56,332 bases of DNA from a virus (taxonomy: Duplodnaviria; Caudoviricetes). Of the stretch, positions 1 to 56,332 are shown piece after piece. The stretch is from positions 1 through 56,332 of IMG/VR virus record IMGVR_UViG_3300029787_000057, one strand, 5' to 3'. A program made the translations under genes and the position numbers. Below the pieces are notes generated by a model. The model was given only the letters and a program-made list of their open reading frames with translations, was not told the DNA's origin and did not search any database. Position 1 is the stretch's first letter. Each line of letters begins with the position of its first letter.

Positions 1-59
1 CCATAAGTCTTGATCCCTCCTGTTGTGCGGTCTCCGCTTTACCCTCACTGTTGTATGCC
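1..59. repeat. Terminal overlap, copy 1 (imperfect direct repeat of 56274-56332)
   Basis: 52/59 identical to the last 59 nt; positions 30-59 fully identical. Confidence 0.95.
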
Positions 60-166
60 AGCCTATAACTCTCGGCATAAGAATTCCCAGCTGCCACGTG
101 CCTAGCAAATGCCATCATCTTTGGCGTAAGTTCTCTTTTCTTTTTCGGCATCTCTTTTTGATCCAT
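1..166 (-). CDS. terS: Terminase small subunit, N-terminal part (gene continues across the window junction into 55960-56332)
   Basis: Manual translation MDQKEMPKKKRELTPKMMAFARHVAAGNSYAESYRLAYNSEGKAETAQQEGSRLM is a typical TerS HTH start (LTPK..F...Y..AY). Its last 19 residues are also encoded at the other end of the window. Confidence 0.8.
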   Translation of the reverse strand, partial: MDQKEMPKKKRELTPKMMAFARHVAAGNSYAESYRLAYNSEGKAETAQQEGSRLM

Positions 167-645: not shown

Positions 646-651
646 TATAAT
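646..651 (+). promoter_or_regulatory. Candidate sigma70 -10 box for the early leader/ardC transcript
   Basis: Perfect TATAAT downstream of an AT-rich tract, just before a GC-rich structured leader; -35 weak (TTGTTA 621-626). Confidence 0.5.
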
Positions 652-658
652 AGGGCCA

Positions 659-967
659 CGGCGACGGGGAGCCGACTGAATCCCGCCACTCTAACAAGGT
701 GAAGTGAGACTCCAAGCGAGCAGCACTGCCAGAGTGACCTACCAGCCGGGACAATGTGCTGGAGCGTGAGAGCCAAGATCTGAAGTGAGTCTCTTAGATA
801 GCAGCACTGGATCTAGCAAGCCACGCAAAGCCTAATCAGCTACCGAACTAAAGATGCGGTGAGGACTAGGGTTGAATGATTTTGTGAAGTACGACTTGGA
901 ACGAGCAACACTGCAAAGTCAGCCCGACATCTGGACGCATCCCAACTACCGGAAAACGATTTTTGTC
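659..967 (+). ncRNA. Putative structured leader/small RNA with three conserved-core hairpins
   Basis: No ORF. Three 27-nt cores GAAGT..CT-N6-.AGCA(G/A)CACT at 701, 782 and 886, each closed by a different stem. The 3' end is set by the hammerhead cut at 967. Confidence 0.6.
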
Positions 968-1015
968 TACGTCTAGAGCTGGCGTACTGATGAGGCCATA
1001 GCAAGCCGAAACAAA
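962..1015 (+). ncRNA. Hammerhead ribozyme, type III
   Basis: GUC 965-967; stem I TACGTC/GGCGTA; CTGATGA 987-993; stem II GGC/GCC; GAAA 1008-1011; stem III TTTGT/ACAAA. Confidence 0.92.
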
Positions 1016-1029
1016 TAACGGAGAACTAA

Positions 1030-1896
1030 GTGATGAGCGACAAGCAAAACATAAGAGAAGAAATCACGAACAACATCATAGCAATGATGGAGAAGAACAC
1101 CGGCGAATGGATTAAGCCATTTGCTGGACTAGCAGCTAGACCGATGAATCCTAAGACAGAGAAAAACTATAGCGGATTGAATGCGTTCTATCTGTCCCTA
1201 TTGGGTAATTCCTATTGGGCCACGTTCAACCAATGGAAAGAGATCGGCGCGAAGATCAAAAAAGGATCTAAGGGAACTCGGATCATGCGGCCTCAGGCAG
1301 TGATCATAAGAGATGAGAACGGTAAGCCTGAGATGGATAGCGAAGGCAATCCCAAAACTTTCACTCAATACAAGCCCTACCCGGTATTTAGTGCCGATCA
1401 GGTTGAGGGATGGGAAGCACCAGAGTTACCTACGATCAGCAATGTCCAGCGAATAGAAAACGTTGATAAGTATCTAAGGAATCTCGGCTCGGTGATCAAC
1501 TTCACGGACGCCGGACAAGCTTTCTATGATCGGTCAAGCGATCAGATCACATTGCCGAAAGAATGCCTGTTTAACGATACCGAAGGCTTCTATTCAACAT
1601 GGTGCCACGAAGAGATCCACAAGACCGGCGCACCTAACCGACTGAACCGAATCAAGGGTAAGAAGTTCGGTGATCGTGACTATGCTTTTGAGGAACTTGT
1701 CGCAGAGATCGGCGCAGCAATGCTATGTGTACAGCTACGAGTCACCCCAACAGTTCGCCAAGATCACGCCGAATATATCGGTAGCTGGTTGAAGGCTCTA
1801 CGCAATGATAAGAAATATCTAGCGGATGCGGCGACACTAGCCGGGGAAGCGATTGATTTCATGGACGCACAACAAACTAACCGGGCCGCTGCATAG
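1030..1896 (+). CDS. ardC: ArdC-family antirestriction protein (ssDNA-binding N-domain + zincin-like MPTase domain)
   Basis: W.KPF, N..T...YSG.N, W.TF.QW...G..IKKGSKG, VF.A.QVEG, AFY....D.I.LP, HEEIH.TG...RLNR, YA.EELVAEIGAA, HA.YI.SW motifs. Confidence 0.93.
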   Translation: MMSDKQNIREEITNNIIAMMEKNTGEWIKPFAGLAARPMNPKTEKNYSGLNAFYLSLLGNSYWATFNQWKEIGAKIKKGSKGTRIMRPQAVIIRDENGKPEMDSEGNPKTFTQYKPYPVFSADQVEGWEAPELPTISNVQRIENVDKYLRNLGSVINFTDAGQAFYDRSSDQITLPKECLFNDTEGFYSTWCHEEIHKTGAPNRLNRIKGKKFGDRDYAFEELVAEIGAAMLCVQLRVTPTVRQDHAEYIGSWLKALRNDKKYLADAATLAGEAIDFMDAQQTNRAAA

Positions 1897-1916
1897 CGGC
1901 TCAAGGAGAACGAGAG

Positions 1917-2144
1917 ATGATCGGAAAAAAAGTGATTGCGAATTACGGAGCCGGGTATCCATTGGAGTCTGGCGTGGTGTTCCAAGTTCAGGAGTCTGAA
2001 AAGAGCGTGGCGATTGAATGGGATTCTGGTGAAACCAGTTTCGTTCCAGTTGCCAAAATCAAAACAATATTTACCTCACTTGAGCTAGTCAAAAGATTTG
2101 AAGTGACTGGCCCGGTTGGAATTTTTTGGGAGAACAAGAGATGA
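1917..2144 (+). CDS. Hypothetical early protein (small beta-rich)
   Basis: ORF with GGAGAAC-N5-ATG RBS. Confidence 0.8.
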   Translation: MIGKKVIANYGAGYPLESGVVFQVQESEKSVAIEWDSGETSFVPVAKIKTIFTSLELVKRFEVTGPVGIFWENKR

Positions 2145-2377
2145 GTTACTTAACTGACGATCAGATAGATCAAATGGCTGACGCTGTAATGACTTCCCAC
2201 TTTTGGAATTGCGATTGGAACAACGCTCGGAGAACGGCGTTTGAATACAGCATAGACGAGTTTGGTATCAAGCCTAGGAAATCGGCGGTGTTGCTGGCTG
2301 TAAAAATCGCGCAAGCAAATTGTCACGCCCTTAACATTTCCGTGGCACAAAAAATAGCAGAGGAGAACGAGAGATGA
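2141..2377 (+). CDS. Hypothetical early protein
   Basis: ATG at 2141 preceded by GGAGAACAAGAG; ATGA coupling at both ends. Confidence 0.8.
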   Translation: MSYLTDDQIDQMADAVMTSHFWNCDWNNARRTAFEYSIDEFGIKPRKSAVLLAVKIAQANCHALNISVAQKIAEENER

Positions 2378-3159
2378 GAATTTTATCTTTTGGCGGCGGC
2401 GTAGACAGTAGCGCAGTGATACTGCACCACATACACAAAGAGGATCTAGGAATAGATCACATAGTATTTGCTGACACTGGCGCGGAGTCACAAGGCACCT
2501 ACAAGAACGTCGAGAACTTCAAGGCGATCTGTGAGGCTCGTGGCATACCATTCACCATTGTCAGACGCGAGGGCGAGAACATAACCGAGTGGGTCACAAG
2601 GTTGGGTATCGTGCCAGTTATGCCCGGAGGTGCTCACGTTTGCAGCAAGAAGTTTAAAGGTGACGTTATCCAGAAATGGGCAAGCGAGAACTTCCCCAGT
2701 CAGGCGATCACTTACCTAATCGGCATCGAGGCAGATGAGGGCCATCGCACTGCTAGATTTACCAAGCCGAAGGGCGATCAGAACGAGTACGAATACCCGC
2801 TAGTCGAGCGTGGCATGACTCGCCAAGATTGCTTGGATCTAATCGCAGAGCATGGGATGACGATTCCAAAATCGTCTTGCGTGTTCTGTCCCTTTATGTC
2901 TGAGCCGGAGATCAGAGAGGTTCGCAAGAATCCCGAAGACTGGGCAACCATCAAGCTTGTCGAGCAAAGATTCAGTGAGGAATCTGGACGCAAGCACCAA
3001 GCATGGCTGGACGCTGGCAAGCCACTTAACAAGGGCGGCAGATGCAACGCCGGACACTGGCGAAAGGATAGCTGGGCCGAAGGCACACGGCTATTTATTC
3101 GCAAGGTAGACGGCAAGCAGCTAACCGTGGACGAATGGTCAGAGCGAGTCAGCGGATAA
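2374..3159 (+). CDS. PAPS-reductase/PP-loop (adenine nucleotide alpha hydrolase) family protein
   Basis: N-terminal SFGGGVDS loop, FADTGAE, CS.KFK, IGI.ADE..R, YPL, and KSSCVFCP cysteine cluster. Confidence 0.85.
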   Translation: MRILSFGGGVDSSAVILHHIHKEDLGIDHIVFADTGAESQGTYKNVENFKAICEARGIPFTIVRREGENITEWVTRLGIVPVMPGGAHVCSKKFKGDVIQKWASENFPSQAITYLIGIEADEGHRTARFTKPKGDQNEYEYPLVERGMTRQDCLDLIAEHGMTIPKSSCVFCPFMSEPEIREVRKNPEDWATIKLVEQRFSEESGRKHQAWLDAGKPLNKGGRCNAGHWRKDSWAEGTRLFIRKVDGKQLTVDEWSERVSG

Positions 3160-3215
3160 TTCCAACTGATGAGTCTGGATAGTTACCAGACGAAACCCCT
3201 TCGGGGGTCTTGGAA
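3160..3215 (+). ncRNA. Hammerhead ribozyme, type I
   Basis: Stem I TTCCAA/TTGGAA; CTGATGA 3166-3172; stem II GTCTGG/CCAGAC; GAAA 3192-3195; stem III CCCC-TTCG-GGGG; GUC 3207-3209. Confidence 0.96.
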
Positions 3216-3236
3216 AACTAACAAGGAGAACAGTAG

Positions 3237-3407
3237 ATGAAAACGAGGCTAGTTATGGTTTCGGTAAAGAGCGACGAGGGCAAAAGCTTGTATCGTTTGG
3301 CACATGGCAAAGTTCTGGACAATGGCAAAGTGATCGTAAAGAAAAGCACTAAGGATGCAATGATCAAAGAGCTAGGGATCCAGCGCGGTGAGAATGTCCA
3401 CGGCTAG
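3237..3407 (+). CDS. Hypothetical small basic protein (56 aa, not in ORF track)
   Basis: GGAGAACAGTAG-ATG; MKTRLVMVSVKSDEGK...ENVHG*. Confidence 0.75.
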   Translation: MKTRLVMVSVKSDEGKSLYRLAHGKVLDNGKVIVKKSTKDAMIKELGIQRGENVHG

Positions 3408-3410
3408 AGC

Positions 3411-3438
3411 TTGCAATCAAAACAATAATCACTAAACT
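3411..3438 (+). promoter_or_regulatory. Candidate internal sigma70 promoter
   Basis: TTGCAA-16-TAAACT in an A/C-rich intergenic gap. Confidence 0.4.
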
Positions 3439-3472
3439 AAAAACACAACTAACAACTAACGGAGAACAAGAG

Positions 3473-3673
3473 ATGAGAAACTTTATTAAAGACAGCGTTA
3501 AATACTATTTAGCAGTAGTTCAAGGAATGTGGATGCCGGTGTTCATTATTGCCGGTATGCAATATCTAGGTTACGAGTTCTACCTTTCGTTTAACTCGCT
3601 GATCTGTGGAGTGCTGATCGGGTTAAGCATGATGTCCATATACCTATTGGCACCTACCAGCGAGGAGGAGTGA
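3473..3673 (+). CDS. Small two-TM membrane protein
   Basis: Two hydrophobic stretches; conserved RBS motif. Confidence 0.75.
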   Translation: MRNFIKDSVKYYLAVVQGMWMPVFIIAGMQYLGYEFYLSFNSLICGVLIGLSMMSIYLLAPTSEEE

Positions 3674-4575: not shown

Positions 4576-4962
4576 ATGATGAAGTATCACGAATGGTATA
4601 CGAGCGAGAGAATATGTCGGACTTGGAAAGATGATTGCACTGTGAGATCTCTGAGCATTGTGCTCAACAAGCCATACAAAAAAGTGTTTAGCGAGTTGAT
4701 GCACCTTGGCCTAGAGATGGGTGCCTATCCAGACCACGATAAAGTATGGATTGCATACGCTGAGGATCAAGGGCTAGTCAAACGCAAATGCCCACGAGAT
4801 GACAACGGGAAGCTTATCAAGCTTAGAGACTGGGACTTCAAGGGAGTGGCAGTCGTAAAGAACAGCGGTCATCTAACGGCAGTTGAAGACGGCTATGTGT
4901 GTGACATATGGGATTGTAGATATAGGCCAGTGAATACTTACTGGGAAAAAATAAACTTTTAG
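4576..4962 (+). CDS. Putative papain-like/C39-like cysteine peptidase-fold phage protein
   Basis: DCTVRSL (Cys), GHLTAVEDG (His), DIWD (Asp) in papain-fold order. Confidence 0.6.
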   Translation: MMKYHEWYTSERICRTWKDDCTVRSLSIVLNKPYKKVFSELMHLGLEMGAYPDHDKVWIAYAEDQGLVKRKCPRDDNGKLIKLRDWDFKGVAVVKNSGHLTAVEDGYVCDIWDCRYRPVNTYWEKINF

Positions 4963-7310: not shown

Positions 7311-7565
7311 ATGGCTGAAGTAAAAAAACTCAAACGAGTTAACGAGATCGGGTTGCGATACGTTTATCAGATCCTAAAGAATGAGAGTCAATACGGCTCT
7401 GTCTATCAGGACTTTAATCAAAACGATATGGCGATCCACAACCTAGCTAAAGAAGCTGATGACAATGTGATGAGGGGCGGTAAGCCCCTCTTTACTTTGA
7501 GGGATCACGAGACTTTATCTAGGGAGGAAAAGGTTTACGAAATACCCGAACAAGGTGTTGACTAA
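7311..7565 (+). CDS. Hypothetical early protein
   Basis: ORF, GGAGG upstream. Confidence 0.7.
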   Translation: MAEVKKLKRVNEIGLRYVYQILKNESQYGSVYQDFNQNDMAIHNLAKEADDNVMRGGKPLFTLRDHETLSREEKVYEIPEQGVD

Positions 7566-45813: not shown

Positions 45814-46434
45814 TTAGGACGCTGCGTCAAACCCTGTAATTTCAATCAAGAAACGTCCAGCGGTATAAGTTGCATCGCCAGTGCCTTGGCTAACCAGATA
45901 CAAATATTGGTCTGCTACAATGTCTCCACCAGCAACCACCGTGCCAGCAGAAGCTGCGCCAGCATTGATAATTTGAGTTTCTGTCAAGTCACCGATTGCA
46001 GTGTCGTTAACGCCTGTGCCTTCCGTAGCGGAGAACAGATCAATGTCTGTGCTGCCCCCAGCGGGAGTCTCAACACAAGTCATCGTTACTCCGAATACTG
46101 TGCCTTGGTTAGCTGCTGTAACTCTACCAATAAACGCAACACCTGAACCGTCTTTACCGATAATGTCTCCAGCAGTACCACCATCCTTCAAACCTGTCAG
46201 GTCAATCATAATAGTTGACTTAACAATGTTTACGTTAGTGTCCACATCGCTTTTTAGGCGAGTTACCTGAGTGACATAAACAGCCGCAGTGCCTTCAATA
46301 CCAGCACTTCCAGTTGCTTCAGTTGCCCACTTGTCGCCAGACGTTACCGTTATGGCACCAGTGGTTGAGTTCTTAGAAATCTGTTGATAACCCTTTTCTG
46401 AACGAATCGGGCCTGTAAAAGTAGTATTAGCCAT
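45814..46434 (-). CDS. Virion structural/decoration protein (MANTTF.GP.RS type)
   Basis: T/G/A-rich; directly after the MCP. Confidence 0.7.
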   Translation of the reverse strand: MANTTFTGPIRSEKGYQQISKNSTTGAITVTSGDKWATEATGSAGIEGTAAVYVTQVTRLKSDVDTNVNIVKSTIMIDLTGLKDGGTAGDIIGKDGSGVAFIGRVTAANQGTVFGVTMTCVETPAGGSTDIDLFSATEGTGVNDTAIGDLTETQIINAGAASAGTVVAGGDIVADQYLYLVSQGTGDATYTAGRFLIEITGFDAAS

Positions 46435-46463
46435 TATTGTCTCCTGTCTTGGCTAGTGTCTAA

Positions 46464-46479
46464 TGTTCCATGTGGAACA
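46464..46479. promoter_or_regulatory. parS-like 16-bp palindrome TGTTCCATGTGGAACA
   Basis: Close match to the bacterial parS consensus TGTT(T/C)CACGTG(A/G)AACA; intergenic. Confidence 0.5.
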
Positions 46480-46489
46480 ATTAGTCAGG

Positions 46490-46527
46490 AAAAAAATAAG
46501 AGCCACTCCAGTTTCCTAGAGTGGCCC
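46490..46527 (-). terminator. Rho-independent terminator after the major capsid gene
   Basis: GGGCCACTCTAG-GAAA-CTGGAGTGGCTC followed by TTATTTTTT. Confidence 0.85.
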
Positions 46528-55959: not shown

Positions 55960-56332
55960 TTAGTGAAGCTCTTTCTGATCGTCTTCTAATAAGTTTGCTA
56001 TTCGTTGCTCGATCTCTGCGCTGATCTGATCAGTTGATTTCTGCTCACTCGTTTCCAGCTTGTCAGTAAATAGCGCAATCGTTTTTCCTAAAAGATTAGC
56101 CGCTTGTAACTGAGCCGGTGAAGGTTCTTGTCCAGTCGTGGGATCCACATTCGTTTCTAGCCATGCTCTTAGCTTACTCGTTACCCGTTCCTTATCGCTC
56201 ACACTAGAGCGTATCAACGCATCCTCTCGCGCCTTAATCAAGACAGCCACCCTTGCGGATATCTGAGGGTCACTCATTAGCCTAGACCCTTCCTGTTGTG
56301 CTGTCTCCGCTTTACCCTCACTGTTGTATGCC
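55960..56332 (-). CDS. terS: Terminase small subunit, C-terminal part
   Basis: Frame open to the window end; joins 1-166; P.I.ARV..L and A..LLGK...LF.D motifs; upstream of terL. Confidence 0.8.
   Translation of the reverse strand, partial: AYNSEGKAETAQQEGSRLMSDPQISARVAVLIKAREDALIRSSVSDKERVTSKLRAWLETNVDPTTGQEPSPAQLQAANLLGKTIALFTDKLETSEQKSTDQISAEIEQRIANLLEDDQKELH
56274..56332. repeat. Terminal overlap, copy 2
   Basis: Matches 1-59 with 7 mismatches. Confidence 0.95.

What the first reader, a model, noticed from the sequence alone, without database searches (positions are those of the whole stretch)
962..3215. Two hammerhead ribozymes bracket the ardC-to-PP-loop cassette and would excise a ligatable (possibly circular) 2.24 kb mRNA
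Seen: a type III hammerhead (cut after GUC 967) ends 5 nt before the ardC SD. A type I hammerhead (cut after GUC 3209) begins on the base after the PAPS-reductase-like stop. Both are on the + strand with complete cores. Their opposite permutations mean the released piece (968-3209, 2242 nt) carries ardC, two small ORFs and the PP-loop gene, and keeps both catalytic cores. Established: hammerhead cleavage leaves a 5'-OH and a 2',3'-cyclic phosphate, the substrates of RtcB; 5'-OH ends are poor substrates for 5'-end-dependent RNase E; engineered twin-ribozyme designs use this logic to make circular RNA. Inference: the phage may process its first anti-defence genes into a stabilised or circular mRNA. 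The predicted junction (GGGGGTC|TACGTC) rebuilds neither stem III of ribozyme 1 nor stem I of ribozyme 2, so a circle should not re-cleave.
Basis: partly seen in the sequence, partly recalled or inferred. Interest (0 to 1): 0.9.

Follow-up and report, generated by a model that had tools for sequence, protein, structure and literature searches.

The report
Two hammerhead ribozymes punctuating phage operon
Two genuine self-cutting hammerhead RNAs bracket the first four early genes of this marine phage, most likely to cut one long message into protected pieces as already described for other phages, and nothing found here supports the idea that the piece is closed into a circle.

Summary
Observation confirmed. 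A type III hammerhead (962-1015, cut after C967) and a type I hammerhead (3160-3215, cut after C3209) lie on the + strand and are the only two hammerhead-descriptor hits in this complete 56-kb marine phage. Both belong to large phage hammerhead families with covarying stems.

- The ends of the excised piece are no more complementary than shuffled controls.
- No RtcB or RNA ligase match was found in the phage.
- A relative brackets the same genes differently.
- No RNA data were available.

The best reading is ribozyme punctuation of an early polycistronic transcript, the arrangement Perreault et al. 2011 reported for prophages, including next to an anti-restriction gene. That paper considered circles and detected none.

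Three points go beyond the passages I read:
- Type III tends to be the 5'-most ribozyme in mixed arrays (16 of 21).
- Type I units usually start at the upstream stop codon.
- HH1 also cuts a conserved, roughly 300-nt structured leader RNA off the mRNA.

This scan has noted hammerhead-punctuated phage operons on other DNA before.

The parts
646..651 (+). TATAAT, the probable -10 box of the early promoter. It lies 9 nt upstream of the conserved start of the leader RNA.
   Evidence: Read. The surrounding block is conserved in L150, L152 and L155. The consensus promoter scan did not list it, so this is inferred.
660..955 (+). Conserved structured leader RNA of about 300 nt. It has no long ORF and would be released at its 3' end by the HH1 cut.
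   Evidence: The 5' motif occurs in 15 viral contig stretches. RNAalifold on 10 sequences predicted 43 pairs, 22 with compensatory changes. There was no Rfam match at E up to 10. Changes against L026 cluster in compensating stems. The 3' limit is approximate.
962..1015 (+). HH1, a type III hammerhead that would cut between C967 and U968. A possible 3-bp loop I-loop II contact joins 978-980 to 1000-1002.
   Evidence: Homologues with covarying stems occur in L026, L015, L016, L072, L137 and L209. Variants in metagenome contigs fall at 962, 972 (U.G to C-G), 976, 977 (loop I) and 1016.
1030..1896 (+). ardC-like anti-restriction gene. The start is GTG 1030 or ATG 1033.
   Evidence: Pfam ArdcN (E 3.4e-23) and MPTase-PolyVal (E 3.4e-40). 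PHROG 7245, anti-restriction protein (E 7e-69).
1917..2144 (+). Small ORF of 75 aa with no family match.
2141..2377 (+). Small ORF of 78 aa. Its start overlaps the previous stop, and its stop overlaps the next start.
   Evidence: The overlaps argue for a single transcript.
2374..3159 (+). PAPS-reductase-like (PP-loop) gene.
   Evidence: PHROG 424, phosphoadenosine phosphosulfate reductase (E 1.8e-34). No Pfam hit at E up to 0.01.
3160..3220 (+). HH2, a type I hammerhead (3160-3215) that would cut between C3209 and U3210. A pseudoknot joins loop II (3180-3184) to 3216-3220.
   Evidence: covariation; pseudoknot.
3225..3407 (+). GGAGAAC Shine-Dalgarno sequence and the next small gene (ATG 3237). 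After the cut, its mRNA would begin at U3210 with a 27-nt leader.
7472..7490 (+). First strong terminator-like hairpin on the + strand downstream of the early genes.
   Evidence: Between 968 and 3209 the scan lists only two weak 5-pair sites, both inside ORFs.

Best explanation
The two hammerheads are cis-acting processing sites in one early polycistronic transcript.

Proposed sequence of events:
1. Transcription starts near 655-660.
2. It runs through a roughly 300-nt structured leader RNA, then ardC, two small genes, the PAPS-reductase-like gene and further early genes.
3. HH1 (type III) cuts after C967. This frees the leader RNA. The ardC message is left with a 5'-OH that lies flush with the stem I hairpin, and with the folded ribozyme as its 5' end.
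4. HH2 (type I) cuts after C3209. The four-gene piece then ends in the folded ribozyme with a 2',3'-cyclic phosphate. The next message begins with a short open 27-nt leader ahead of its ribosome-binding site.

The likely benefit is defined ends that are independent of host nucleases, giving different stabilities and translation for the pieces.

Shown here: the motifs, their family membership, their intercistronic placement and the recurrence of the layout in relatives.
Inferred: cleavage itself, a single transcript, and any effect on stability.
For: Motifs:
- Both have complete cores and three stems. They are the only two descriptor hits in the genome, against 0 type I and 4 type III hits in 300 shuffles.

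HH2 family:
- The custom model R1 gave 119 matches at E up to 0.01 in 83 sources.
- 95.8% of cells are paired, against 79.2% when shuffled and 20-52% when the partner is slid. 13 of 16 pairs show double changes.
- The pseudoknot covaries between loop II and the 3' flank (UAGUU/AACUA, UGGUU/AACCA, UGAUU/AAUCA). Own-flank helices of at least 4 bp occur in 0.77 of 62 units. Shuffled loops give 0.39 (maximum 0.53) and permuted partners 0.65 (maximum 0.73).

HH1 family:
- 85 distinct type III units were found in viral contigs.
- Close homologues show compensatory changes in all three stems.
- 61 of 93 type III hits have an SD-like site plus a start codon within 40 nt.

Placement is the family norm:
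- Of 106 distinct type I units, 79 follow an open frame of at least 60 codons, with a median gap of 1 nt.
- 87 of the 106 are followed by an SD plus a start codon, with a median cut-to-start distance of 30 nt. The window has gap 0 and distance 27.

Arrays:
- 39 of 136 de-duplicated arrays hold 2 or more units on one strand, with a median spacing of 629 nt.
- L012 has four type I units between single genes, including one just after its PAPS-reductase-like stop and one about 75 nt before ardC.

Single transcript:
- Genes have overlapping starts and stops, and there is no strong terminator before 7472.

Print:
- Perreault et al. 2011 (passages read) showed cleavage in vitro for three tandem arrangements and in E. 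coli for one that flanks ardA. They proposed processing into operon- or gene-length mRNAs.
Against: - No RNA evidence exists for this phage, because no RNA holder was listed.
- HH1 is weak. Stem II has 3 pairs, and stem III has 4 pairs, three of them A-U. Its hammerhead fold is not the minimum-free-energy fold. Its Rfam score is far below gathering.
- Loop-loop pairing is not a general feature of the 85 type III units: mean 2.22 against 2.13 with permuted partners.
- The three closest complete phages by large terminase (57% identity, two of them Pelagibacter phages) contain no such hammerheads. The elements are therefore dispensable in this lineage.
- The stabilising effect of 5'-OH and structured ends is inferred from general knowledge of RNase E and exonucleases (recalled), not shown for any phage hammerhead. 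The 2019 review still calls the purpose unresolved (passage read).
Confidence: 0.6

Rival explanations
1. One reading: after both cuts, a host RtcB-type ligase joins the ends of the 2242-nt piece, giving a circular (or re-ligated), exonuclease-proof mRNA for ardC through the PP-loop gene.
For: - The end chemistry would fit RtcB (established for hammerheads, not tested here).
- The junction rebuilds neither ribozyme, so a circle would not re-cut (read).
- Internal SD sites would allow translation of a circle (inference).
- Type III precedes type I/II in 16 of 21 mixed arrays, so doubly capped first pieces are common.
Against: - Ends are not complementary beyond chance: -16.2 kcal/mol against a shuffled mean of -16.6, with 246 of 500 shuffles as good.
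- No RtcB or RNA_ligase match was found in a genome rated complete.
- The host is unknown.
- The bracket and its cargo are not conserved in relatives.
- Perreault et al. 2011 report that they could not detect circular or spliced products.
- My search for hammerhead, circular RNA, RtcB and phage returned 8 papers. None of their listed titles or abstract openings concerns a phage mRNA circle.
- An earlier circular reading in this scan fell on checking (e1-2575356).
Confidence: 0.05
2. The two ribozymes are independent modules with no functional pairing. They travel with gene cassettes, and their conserved stem I / pseudoknot / SD block mainly serves as a shared boundary at which cassettes are exchanged between phages. 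Cleavage is incidental or of small benefit.
For: - Gene order between hammerheads differs among relatives.
- Metagenome contigs diverge from the window exactly at 3156-3159. One relative has the 3' end of a type I unit directly before its PAPS-reductase-like gene (loose ends).
- The closest cultured relatives lack the elements.
Against: - Cores, three stems and tertiary pairings are kept by compensatory change across many contigs. This points to selection on the RNA fold rather than on a DNA site.
- Placement at stop codons and before SD sites is tight.
Confidence: 0.15
3. Only HH2 is an active ribozyme. HH1 is a decaying or slow, perhaps conditionally active, copy, so no defined 2242-nt piece is made.
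For: - Stem II has 3 pairs plus a C.A mismatch, where homologues L015, L016, L072 and L209 have 4 pairs.
- An alternative fold is 1.8 kcal/mol better.
- Rfam gives 17.7 bits.
Against: - The core is intact.
- The same 3-pair form is kept in L026, with changes only in loop I and the T-run.
- Population variants avoid the core, and one strengthens stem I.
- Another family member with a 3-pair stem II exists (L239).
Confidence: 0.15

Closest known systems
Clustered hammerhead ribozymes flanking genes in prophages and phages (Perreault et al. 2011, PMC3088659; passages read)
   Same: Several same-strand hammerheads of mixed types flank single genes or short blocks. An anti-restriction gene sits next to one. 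Processing of a long phage transcript was proposed, and circular or spliced products were considered.
   Different: - The setting is an uncultured marine phage whose large terminase is 57% identical to that of Pelagibacter phage HTVC027P.
- The gene is ardC rather than ardA.
- HH1 directly follows a conserved structured leader RNA.
- The type III-first polarity and the start of type I units at the stop codon are not in the passages I read. I could not see that paper's figures or supplements.
Rfam Hammerhead_1 (RF00163) and Hammerhead_3 (RF00008)
   Same: Complete core, three helices, and type I and type III topologies aligned end to end.
   Different: Both score below gathering. A type I relative in L094/L058 also scores below it (30.8 against 34). 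These phage subfamilies are therefore poorly captured by the models.
Host RNase III processing of the phage T7 early transcript (recalled, not looked up)
   Same: An early polycistronic message whose first gene is an anti-restriction function is cut at intercistronic structures, which stay on the 3' ends of the pieces.
   Different: Here the cut would be made by the RNA itself and would leave a 5'-OH and a 2',3'-cyclic phosphate. No host enzyme is needed.
Synthetic ribozyme insulators such as RiboJ in 5' UTRs (recalled; one search gave only papers that mention it)
   Same: A type III hammerhead in the 5' UTR removes whatever lies upstream and stays folded on the 5' end of the mRNA.
   Different: HH1 is natural and precedes a four-gene block, and the piece it removes is itself a conserved structured RNA.
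Twin-ribozyme circular RNA systems: viroids, retrozymes and engineered designs (review PMC6765202, passages read; the engineered designs are recalled)
   Same: Flanking self-cleaving ribozymes give ends that a tRNA-ligase or RtcB-type enzyme can join.
   Different: - No ligation stem or end complementarity.
- The two ribozymes are of different permutation, so the ends do not rebuild a hammerhead.
- The piece is 2.2 kb of coding RNA.
- No ligase match in the phage.
- No junction evidence.

Membership tests
Hammerhead ribozyme | Conserved catalytic core: CUGANGA, GAAA, the A15.1-U16.1 pair, and a cleavage triplet ending in a base other than G | tested here: met
   HH1 has CUGAUGA 987-993, GAAA 1008-1011 and GUC 965-967. 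HH2 has CUGAUGA 3166-3172, GAAA 3192-3195 and GUC 3207-3209.
Hammerhead ribozyme | Three helices around the core, supported by covariation | tested here: met
   HH2 family: 13 of 16 pairs show double changes, and 95.8% of cells are paired against 20-52% for slid controls. HH1: compensatory changes in stems I, II and III against L015, L072, L137 and L209. That set was picked by a descriptor that demands pairing, so it shows variety rather than an independent test.
Hammerhead ribozyme | Tertiary contact between stems I and II (loop-loop contact or pseudoknot), typical of fast natural hammerheads | tested here: inconclusive
   HH2: a 5-bp pseudoknot joins 3180-3184 to 3216-3220, with family covariation above both controls. 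HH1: a 3-bp loop I-loop II match recurs in its subfamily (GCU/AGC in some members, UCCC/GGGA in others). It is not above permuted controls across all 85 type III units.
Hammerhead ribozyme | Rfam gathering score | tested here: not met
   27.5 against 34 for HH2 and 17.7 against 48.5 for HH1. No hits in the whole-window scans. This is a curated threshold, not a biochemical criterion.
Hammerhead ribozyme | Site-specific self-cleavage | not testable with these tools
   Needs transcription assays. No RNA run was listed.
Hammerhead-punctuated phage operon (Perreault et al. 2011) | Two or more same-strand hammerheads in intergenic positions flanking genes of one transcription unit in a phage | tested here: met
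   Relatives carry 2 to 6 or more units per locus.
Ribozyme-flanked circular RNA | Ends brought together by pairing, or rebuilding a ribozyme | tested here: not met
   The end duplex is no better than shuffles (246 of 500). The junction rebuilds neither stem.
Ribozyme-flanked circular RNA | A ligase available | tested here: inconclusive
   No match in the phage (the Rnl1 control rang in no genome). The host is unknown, so host RtcB could not be examined.
Ribozyme-flanked circular RNA | Back-joined junction in RNA | not testable with these tools
   No RNA holder was listed.

The most novel reading that the evidence does not exclude
The type III-first, type I-later layout is a purpose-built design. 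It would give the phage's first anti-defence message ribozyme folds at both ends, with a 5'-OH and a 2',3'-cyclic phosphate, and the host RtcB would close this piece into a translatable circular mRNA. A related possibility applies to relatives with runs of type I units. Those units share one stem I sequence, so each excised cassette could pair its own 5' end with its 3' ribozyme and be re-ligated by the hammerhead itself.
Probability: 0.05. Interest if true: 0.85.

Novelty: new member of a known kind. Interest (0 to 1): 0.35.

Why it matters
The biological purpose of bacterial and phage hammerheads is still open (review passage). This locus and its relatives supply a large natural data set with three regularities:
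- Type I units start at the stop codon of the upstream gene.
- Cuts fall about 30 nt before the next start codon.
- Type III units sit at the head of arrays.

One such type III unit releases a conserved structured RNA. Together these make concrete, testable predictions about how self-cleavage shapes early phage gene expression. They do not, on present evidence, point to a new kind of RNA such as a circular phage mRNA.

Tried and rejected
- Rfam on the whole window gave no hammerhead at the gathering threshold or at E up to 1. Only searches of short stretches listed them.
- blastn of 700-3500 against GenBank phages found no match. blastn of the HH2 region found only short partial matches in Streptomyces phages and one Ruegeria phage. 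I did not follow these up.
- Sequencing runs: no RNA holder was listed. All 20 holders are marine or seawater DNA contig sets, so cleavage, transcript continuity and junctions could not be tested.
- Laying four DNA contig sets gave only sequence variants and breakpoints.
- RtcB, RNA_ligase and T4 Rnl1 family searches of the phage gave no match. The Rnl1 control rang nowhere, so that answer is empty.
- The three complete phages closest by large terminase gave no match to model R1 or to a hammerhead core pattern.
- Host RtcB could not be examined, because I had no handle on a host genome and no host assignment.
- Loop I-loop II pairing as a general feature of phage type III hammerheads is rejected: no excess over permuted partners.
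- Chance origin of HH1 is rejected on shuffles plus homologues.
- Rfam identity for the leader RNA: none at E up to 10.
- Two attempts to read Weinberg et al. 2015 failed because the paper is not held. What I say about genes associated with ribozymes in that paper would be recall, so I left it out.
- Supplements and figures of Perreault et al. 2011 were not seen. They may already show type orders.
- Ascertainment caveats:
  - Loci L031 onward were fetched with patterns that fix stem I or core letters. Conservation of those letters there means nothing.
  - Arrays were called by my own descriptor and de-duplicated only by identical units, so relatives remain among the 21 mixed arrays.
  - Five type III-first arrays and one exception have under 1.5 kb of upstream sequence. 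Without those six the count is 11 of 15, against 5.2 expected (29 of 20000 permutations).
Full report
WHAT IS THERE

The window is a complete viral record of 56,332 bases. CheckV rates it 100% complete and IMG/VR classes its ends as linear. DNA holders are marine metagenomes. Its large terminase is 57% identical to that of Pelagibacter phage HTVC027P.

From about 300 to about 8,500 the genes run on the + strand. The finding lies at the head of this block.

Reading, both claimed ribozymes are present at the stated coordinates.
- HH1 (962-1015) is a type III hammerhead. It has stem III (962-966 with 1011-1015), GUC 965-967, a 6-pair stem I hairpin (968-986), CUGAUGA 987-993, a stem II of only 3 pairs (994-996 with 1005-1007, then a C.A mismatch) and GAAA 1008-1011.
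- HH2 (3160-3215) is a type I hammerhead. It has a 6-pair open stem I, CUGAUGA 3166-3172, a 6-pair stem II, GAAA 3192-3195, a 4-pair stem III closed by UUCG, and GUC 3207-3209.

HH2 starts on the base after the TAA stop of the PAPS-reductase-like gene. HH1 ends 4 nt before the GGAG that precedes ardC. The piece between the cuts is 2242 nt.

IS IT MORE THAN CHANCE?

- A descriptor of my own (stems of at least 4, 3 and 3 pairs) finds exactly these two sites on both strands of the window. In 300 dinucleotide-preserving shuffles it found 0 type I and 4 type III hits in total.
- Rfam lists both only when short stretches are searched, and both score below gathering. HH2 scores 27.5 bits against 34 (E 3.3e-5) and HH1 scores 17.7 against 48.5 (E 0.17). 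The whole-window scans list neither.
- The hammerhead fold of HH2 is its minimum-free-energy fold (z -2.2). The fold of HH1 is 1.8 kcal/mol worse than an alternative.

RELATIVES

Loci found through the PAPS-reductase-like protein and through ArdC carry homologous type I hammerheads in intergenic positions.

L012 has four type I units:
- one 11 nt after its PAPS-reductase-like stop;
- one after a homologue of the window's gene 4576-4962;
- one about 75 nt before ardC;
- one after the ardC block.

A covariance model built from five members matched 119 sites in 83 sources.

On that alignment 95.8% of cells pair, against 79.2% in shuffles and 20-52% when the partner column is slid. 13 of 16 pairs show changes on both sides. 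Conservation of stem I there is imposed by the search pattern and carries no weight.

A pseudoknot joins loop II to the bases just 3' of stem I. In the window this is UAGUU 3180-3184 with AACUA 3216-3220. It covaries across the family and exceeds both controls.

For HH1:
- The near-identical relative L026 keeps the ribozyme, with changes only in loop I and the T-run, while nearby leader stems change by compensation.
- More distant homologues (L015, L016, L072, L137/L142, L209) have different but pairing stems I, II and III.
- A second pattern scan gave at least 120 stretches and 85 distinct type III units by descriptor.
- 61 of 93 type III hits have an SD-like site and a start codon within 40 nt.
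- Metagenome contigs laid on the window vary in HH1 only at 962, 972 (U.G to C-G), 976 and 977 (loop I) and 1016. In HH2 they vary by paired insertions and deletions in stem II.

Both are therefore genuine family members. HH1 is the weaker candidate for fast cleavage.

LAYOUT RULES IN THE FAMILY

- Of 106 distinct type I units with flanks, 79 follow an open frame of at least 60 codons, with a median gap of 1 nt.
- 87 of the 106 are followed by an SD-like site and a start codon, with a median cut-to-start distance of 30 nt. The window has 0 and 27.
- After de-duplication, 39 of 136 arrays have two or more units on one strand, with a median spacing of 629 nt.
- In 21 mixed arrays, type III is 5'-most in 16. 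Random order would give 7.1, and 2 of 20000 permutations reach 16.
- Six arrays have under 1.5 kb of upstream sequence. Dropping them leaves 11 of 15 against 5.2 expected, with 29 of 20000 permutations reaching that count.
- Related contigs remain in these counts, so this is a trend, not a law.

CARGO IS NOT CONSERVED

- In L072/L012 the PAPS-reductase-like gene lies alone between a type III and a type I unit, and ardC lies between two type I units.
- Genes after type III units are mostly small and varied.
- Metagenome contigs diverge from the window exactly at the start of HH2 (3156-3159). One relative has a type I unit immediately before its PAPS-reductase-like gene.

UPSTREAM CONTEXT

Between a TATAAT at 646-651 and HH1 lies about 300 nt without a long ORF.
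- Its 5' motif occurs in 15 viral contig stretches.
- An alignment of 10 sequences gives 43 predicted pairs, 22 with compensatory changes.
- Rfam has no match.
- HH1 would release this RNA from the mRNA.
- In five relatives (L094, L058, L153, L156, L157) the same leader is followed by other sequence. The first ribozyme there is a type II hammerhead that passes Rfam gathering (38.5-41.9 bits against 37), with type I matches further down in L094 and L058.

MECHANISM

The genes from 1917 to 3159 overlap start to stop. No strong terminator lies before 7472, and no promoter-like site of note lies between the ribozymes. One transcript across both sites is therefore likely, though it is inferred.

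The best-supported reading is self-cleaving punctuation of an early polycistronic message:
- HH1 removes the leader. It leaves the ardC message with a 5'-OH flush with a hairpin.
- HH2 leaves its fold and a cyclic phosphate on the 3' end of the four-gene piece. It also exposes a short leader for the next gene.

That such ends alter decay rests on general knowledge of 5'-end-dependent RNase E and 3' exonucleases (recalled), not on any test.

Perreault et al. 2011 (passages read) described this kind of arrangement:
- Multiple hammerheads flank genes in prophages.
- Three tandem arrangements cleaved in vitro, and one that flanks ardA cleaved in E. coli.
- ardA lies immediately downstream of a hammerhead in three Legionella strains.
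- The authors proposed processing into gene-length mRNAs.
- They considered spliced or circular products but could not detect them.

The 2019 review still lists the purpose as open.

THE CIRCULAR-mRNA IDEA

The geometry is right, and a junction would not re-cut. Otherwise I found nothing to support it:
- The ends do not pair beyond chance.
- The phage gave no match to RtcB or RNA ligase families.
- The host is unknown.
- The bracket is not kept around this cargo.
- Most arrays are type I-type I or include type II units.
- No RNA data could be laid.
- My literature search for hammerhead, circular RNA, RtcB and phage gave 8 papers. None of their listed titles or abstract openings concerns a phage mRNA circle. 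A search adding anti-restriction gave none.

I put the circular reading at about 0.05.

VERDICT

This is a real, well-supported pair of hammerheads and a new member of a known kind, the hammerhead-punctuated phage operon. The scan has noted such operons on other DNA before. The points worth carrying forward are the layout rules above and the ribozyme-released leader RNA.

Noticed in passing
window 660-955 (+): A conserved structured leader RNA of about 300 nt lies between a TATAAT (646-651) and HH1. It holds three copies of a hairpin with a conserved inner motif. Its 5' motif occurs in 15 viral contig stretches, 22 of 43 predicted pairs show compensatory changes, and it has no Rfam match.
   Followed up: partly
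L094 1798-2540; also L058, L153, L156, L157: In these relatives the same leader RNA is not followed directly by a ribozyme. Other sequence comes first, then a type II hammerhead that passes Rfam gathering (38.5-41.9 bits against 37). Rfam also lists a type I match further down in L094 and L058.
   Followed up: partly
window 3156-3159 and 2361-2374: Metagenome contigs of relatives diverge from the window exactly at the start of HH2. One relative carries the 3' end of a type I hammerhead directly before its PAPS-reductase-like gene. Hammerheads therefore coincide with mosaic cassette borders.
   Followed up: partly
family level (106 type I units in fetched loci): Type I hammerheads start a median of 1 nt after the stop codon of the upstream open frame. 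A terminating ribosome would cover the 5' strand of stem I, which may couple cutting to translation (lead from e1-3481804).
   Followed up: partly
window 46432-46490 (-): Match to Rfam Mu-gpT-DE RNA at 47.1 bits, just under gathering at 49 (E 8.6e-8). It ends at an ATG in the structural gene block.
   Followed up: no
L246 (- strand), L036 (- strand): Very dense arrays. By my descriptor, L246 has one type III unit followed by nine type II units within about 4.4 kb. L036 has six type I matches to model R1 on one strand. I did not verify the units individually.
   Followed up: no
window 1-166 (-) and 55960-56331 (-): An ORF on the minus strand starts at 166 and runs off the window's first base. 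Another ORF enters from the last base. The early block is therefore divergent from the structural genes across 166-650.
   Followed up: no
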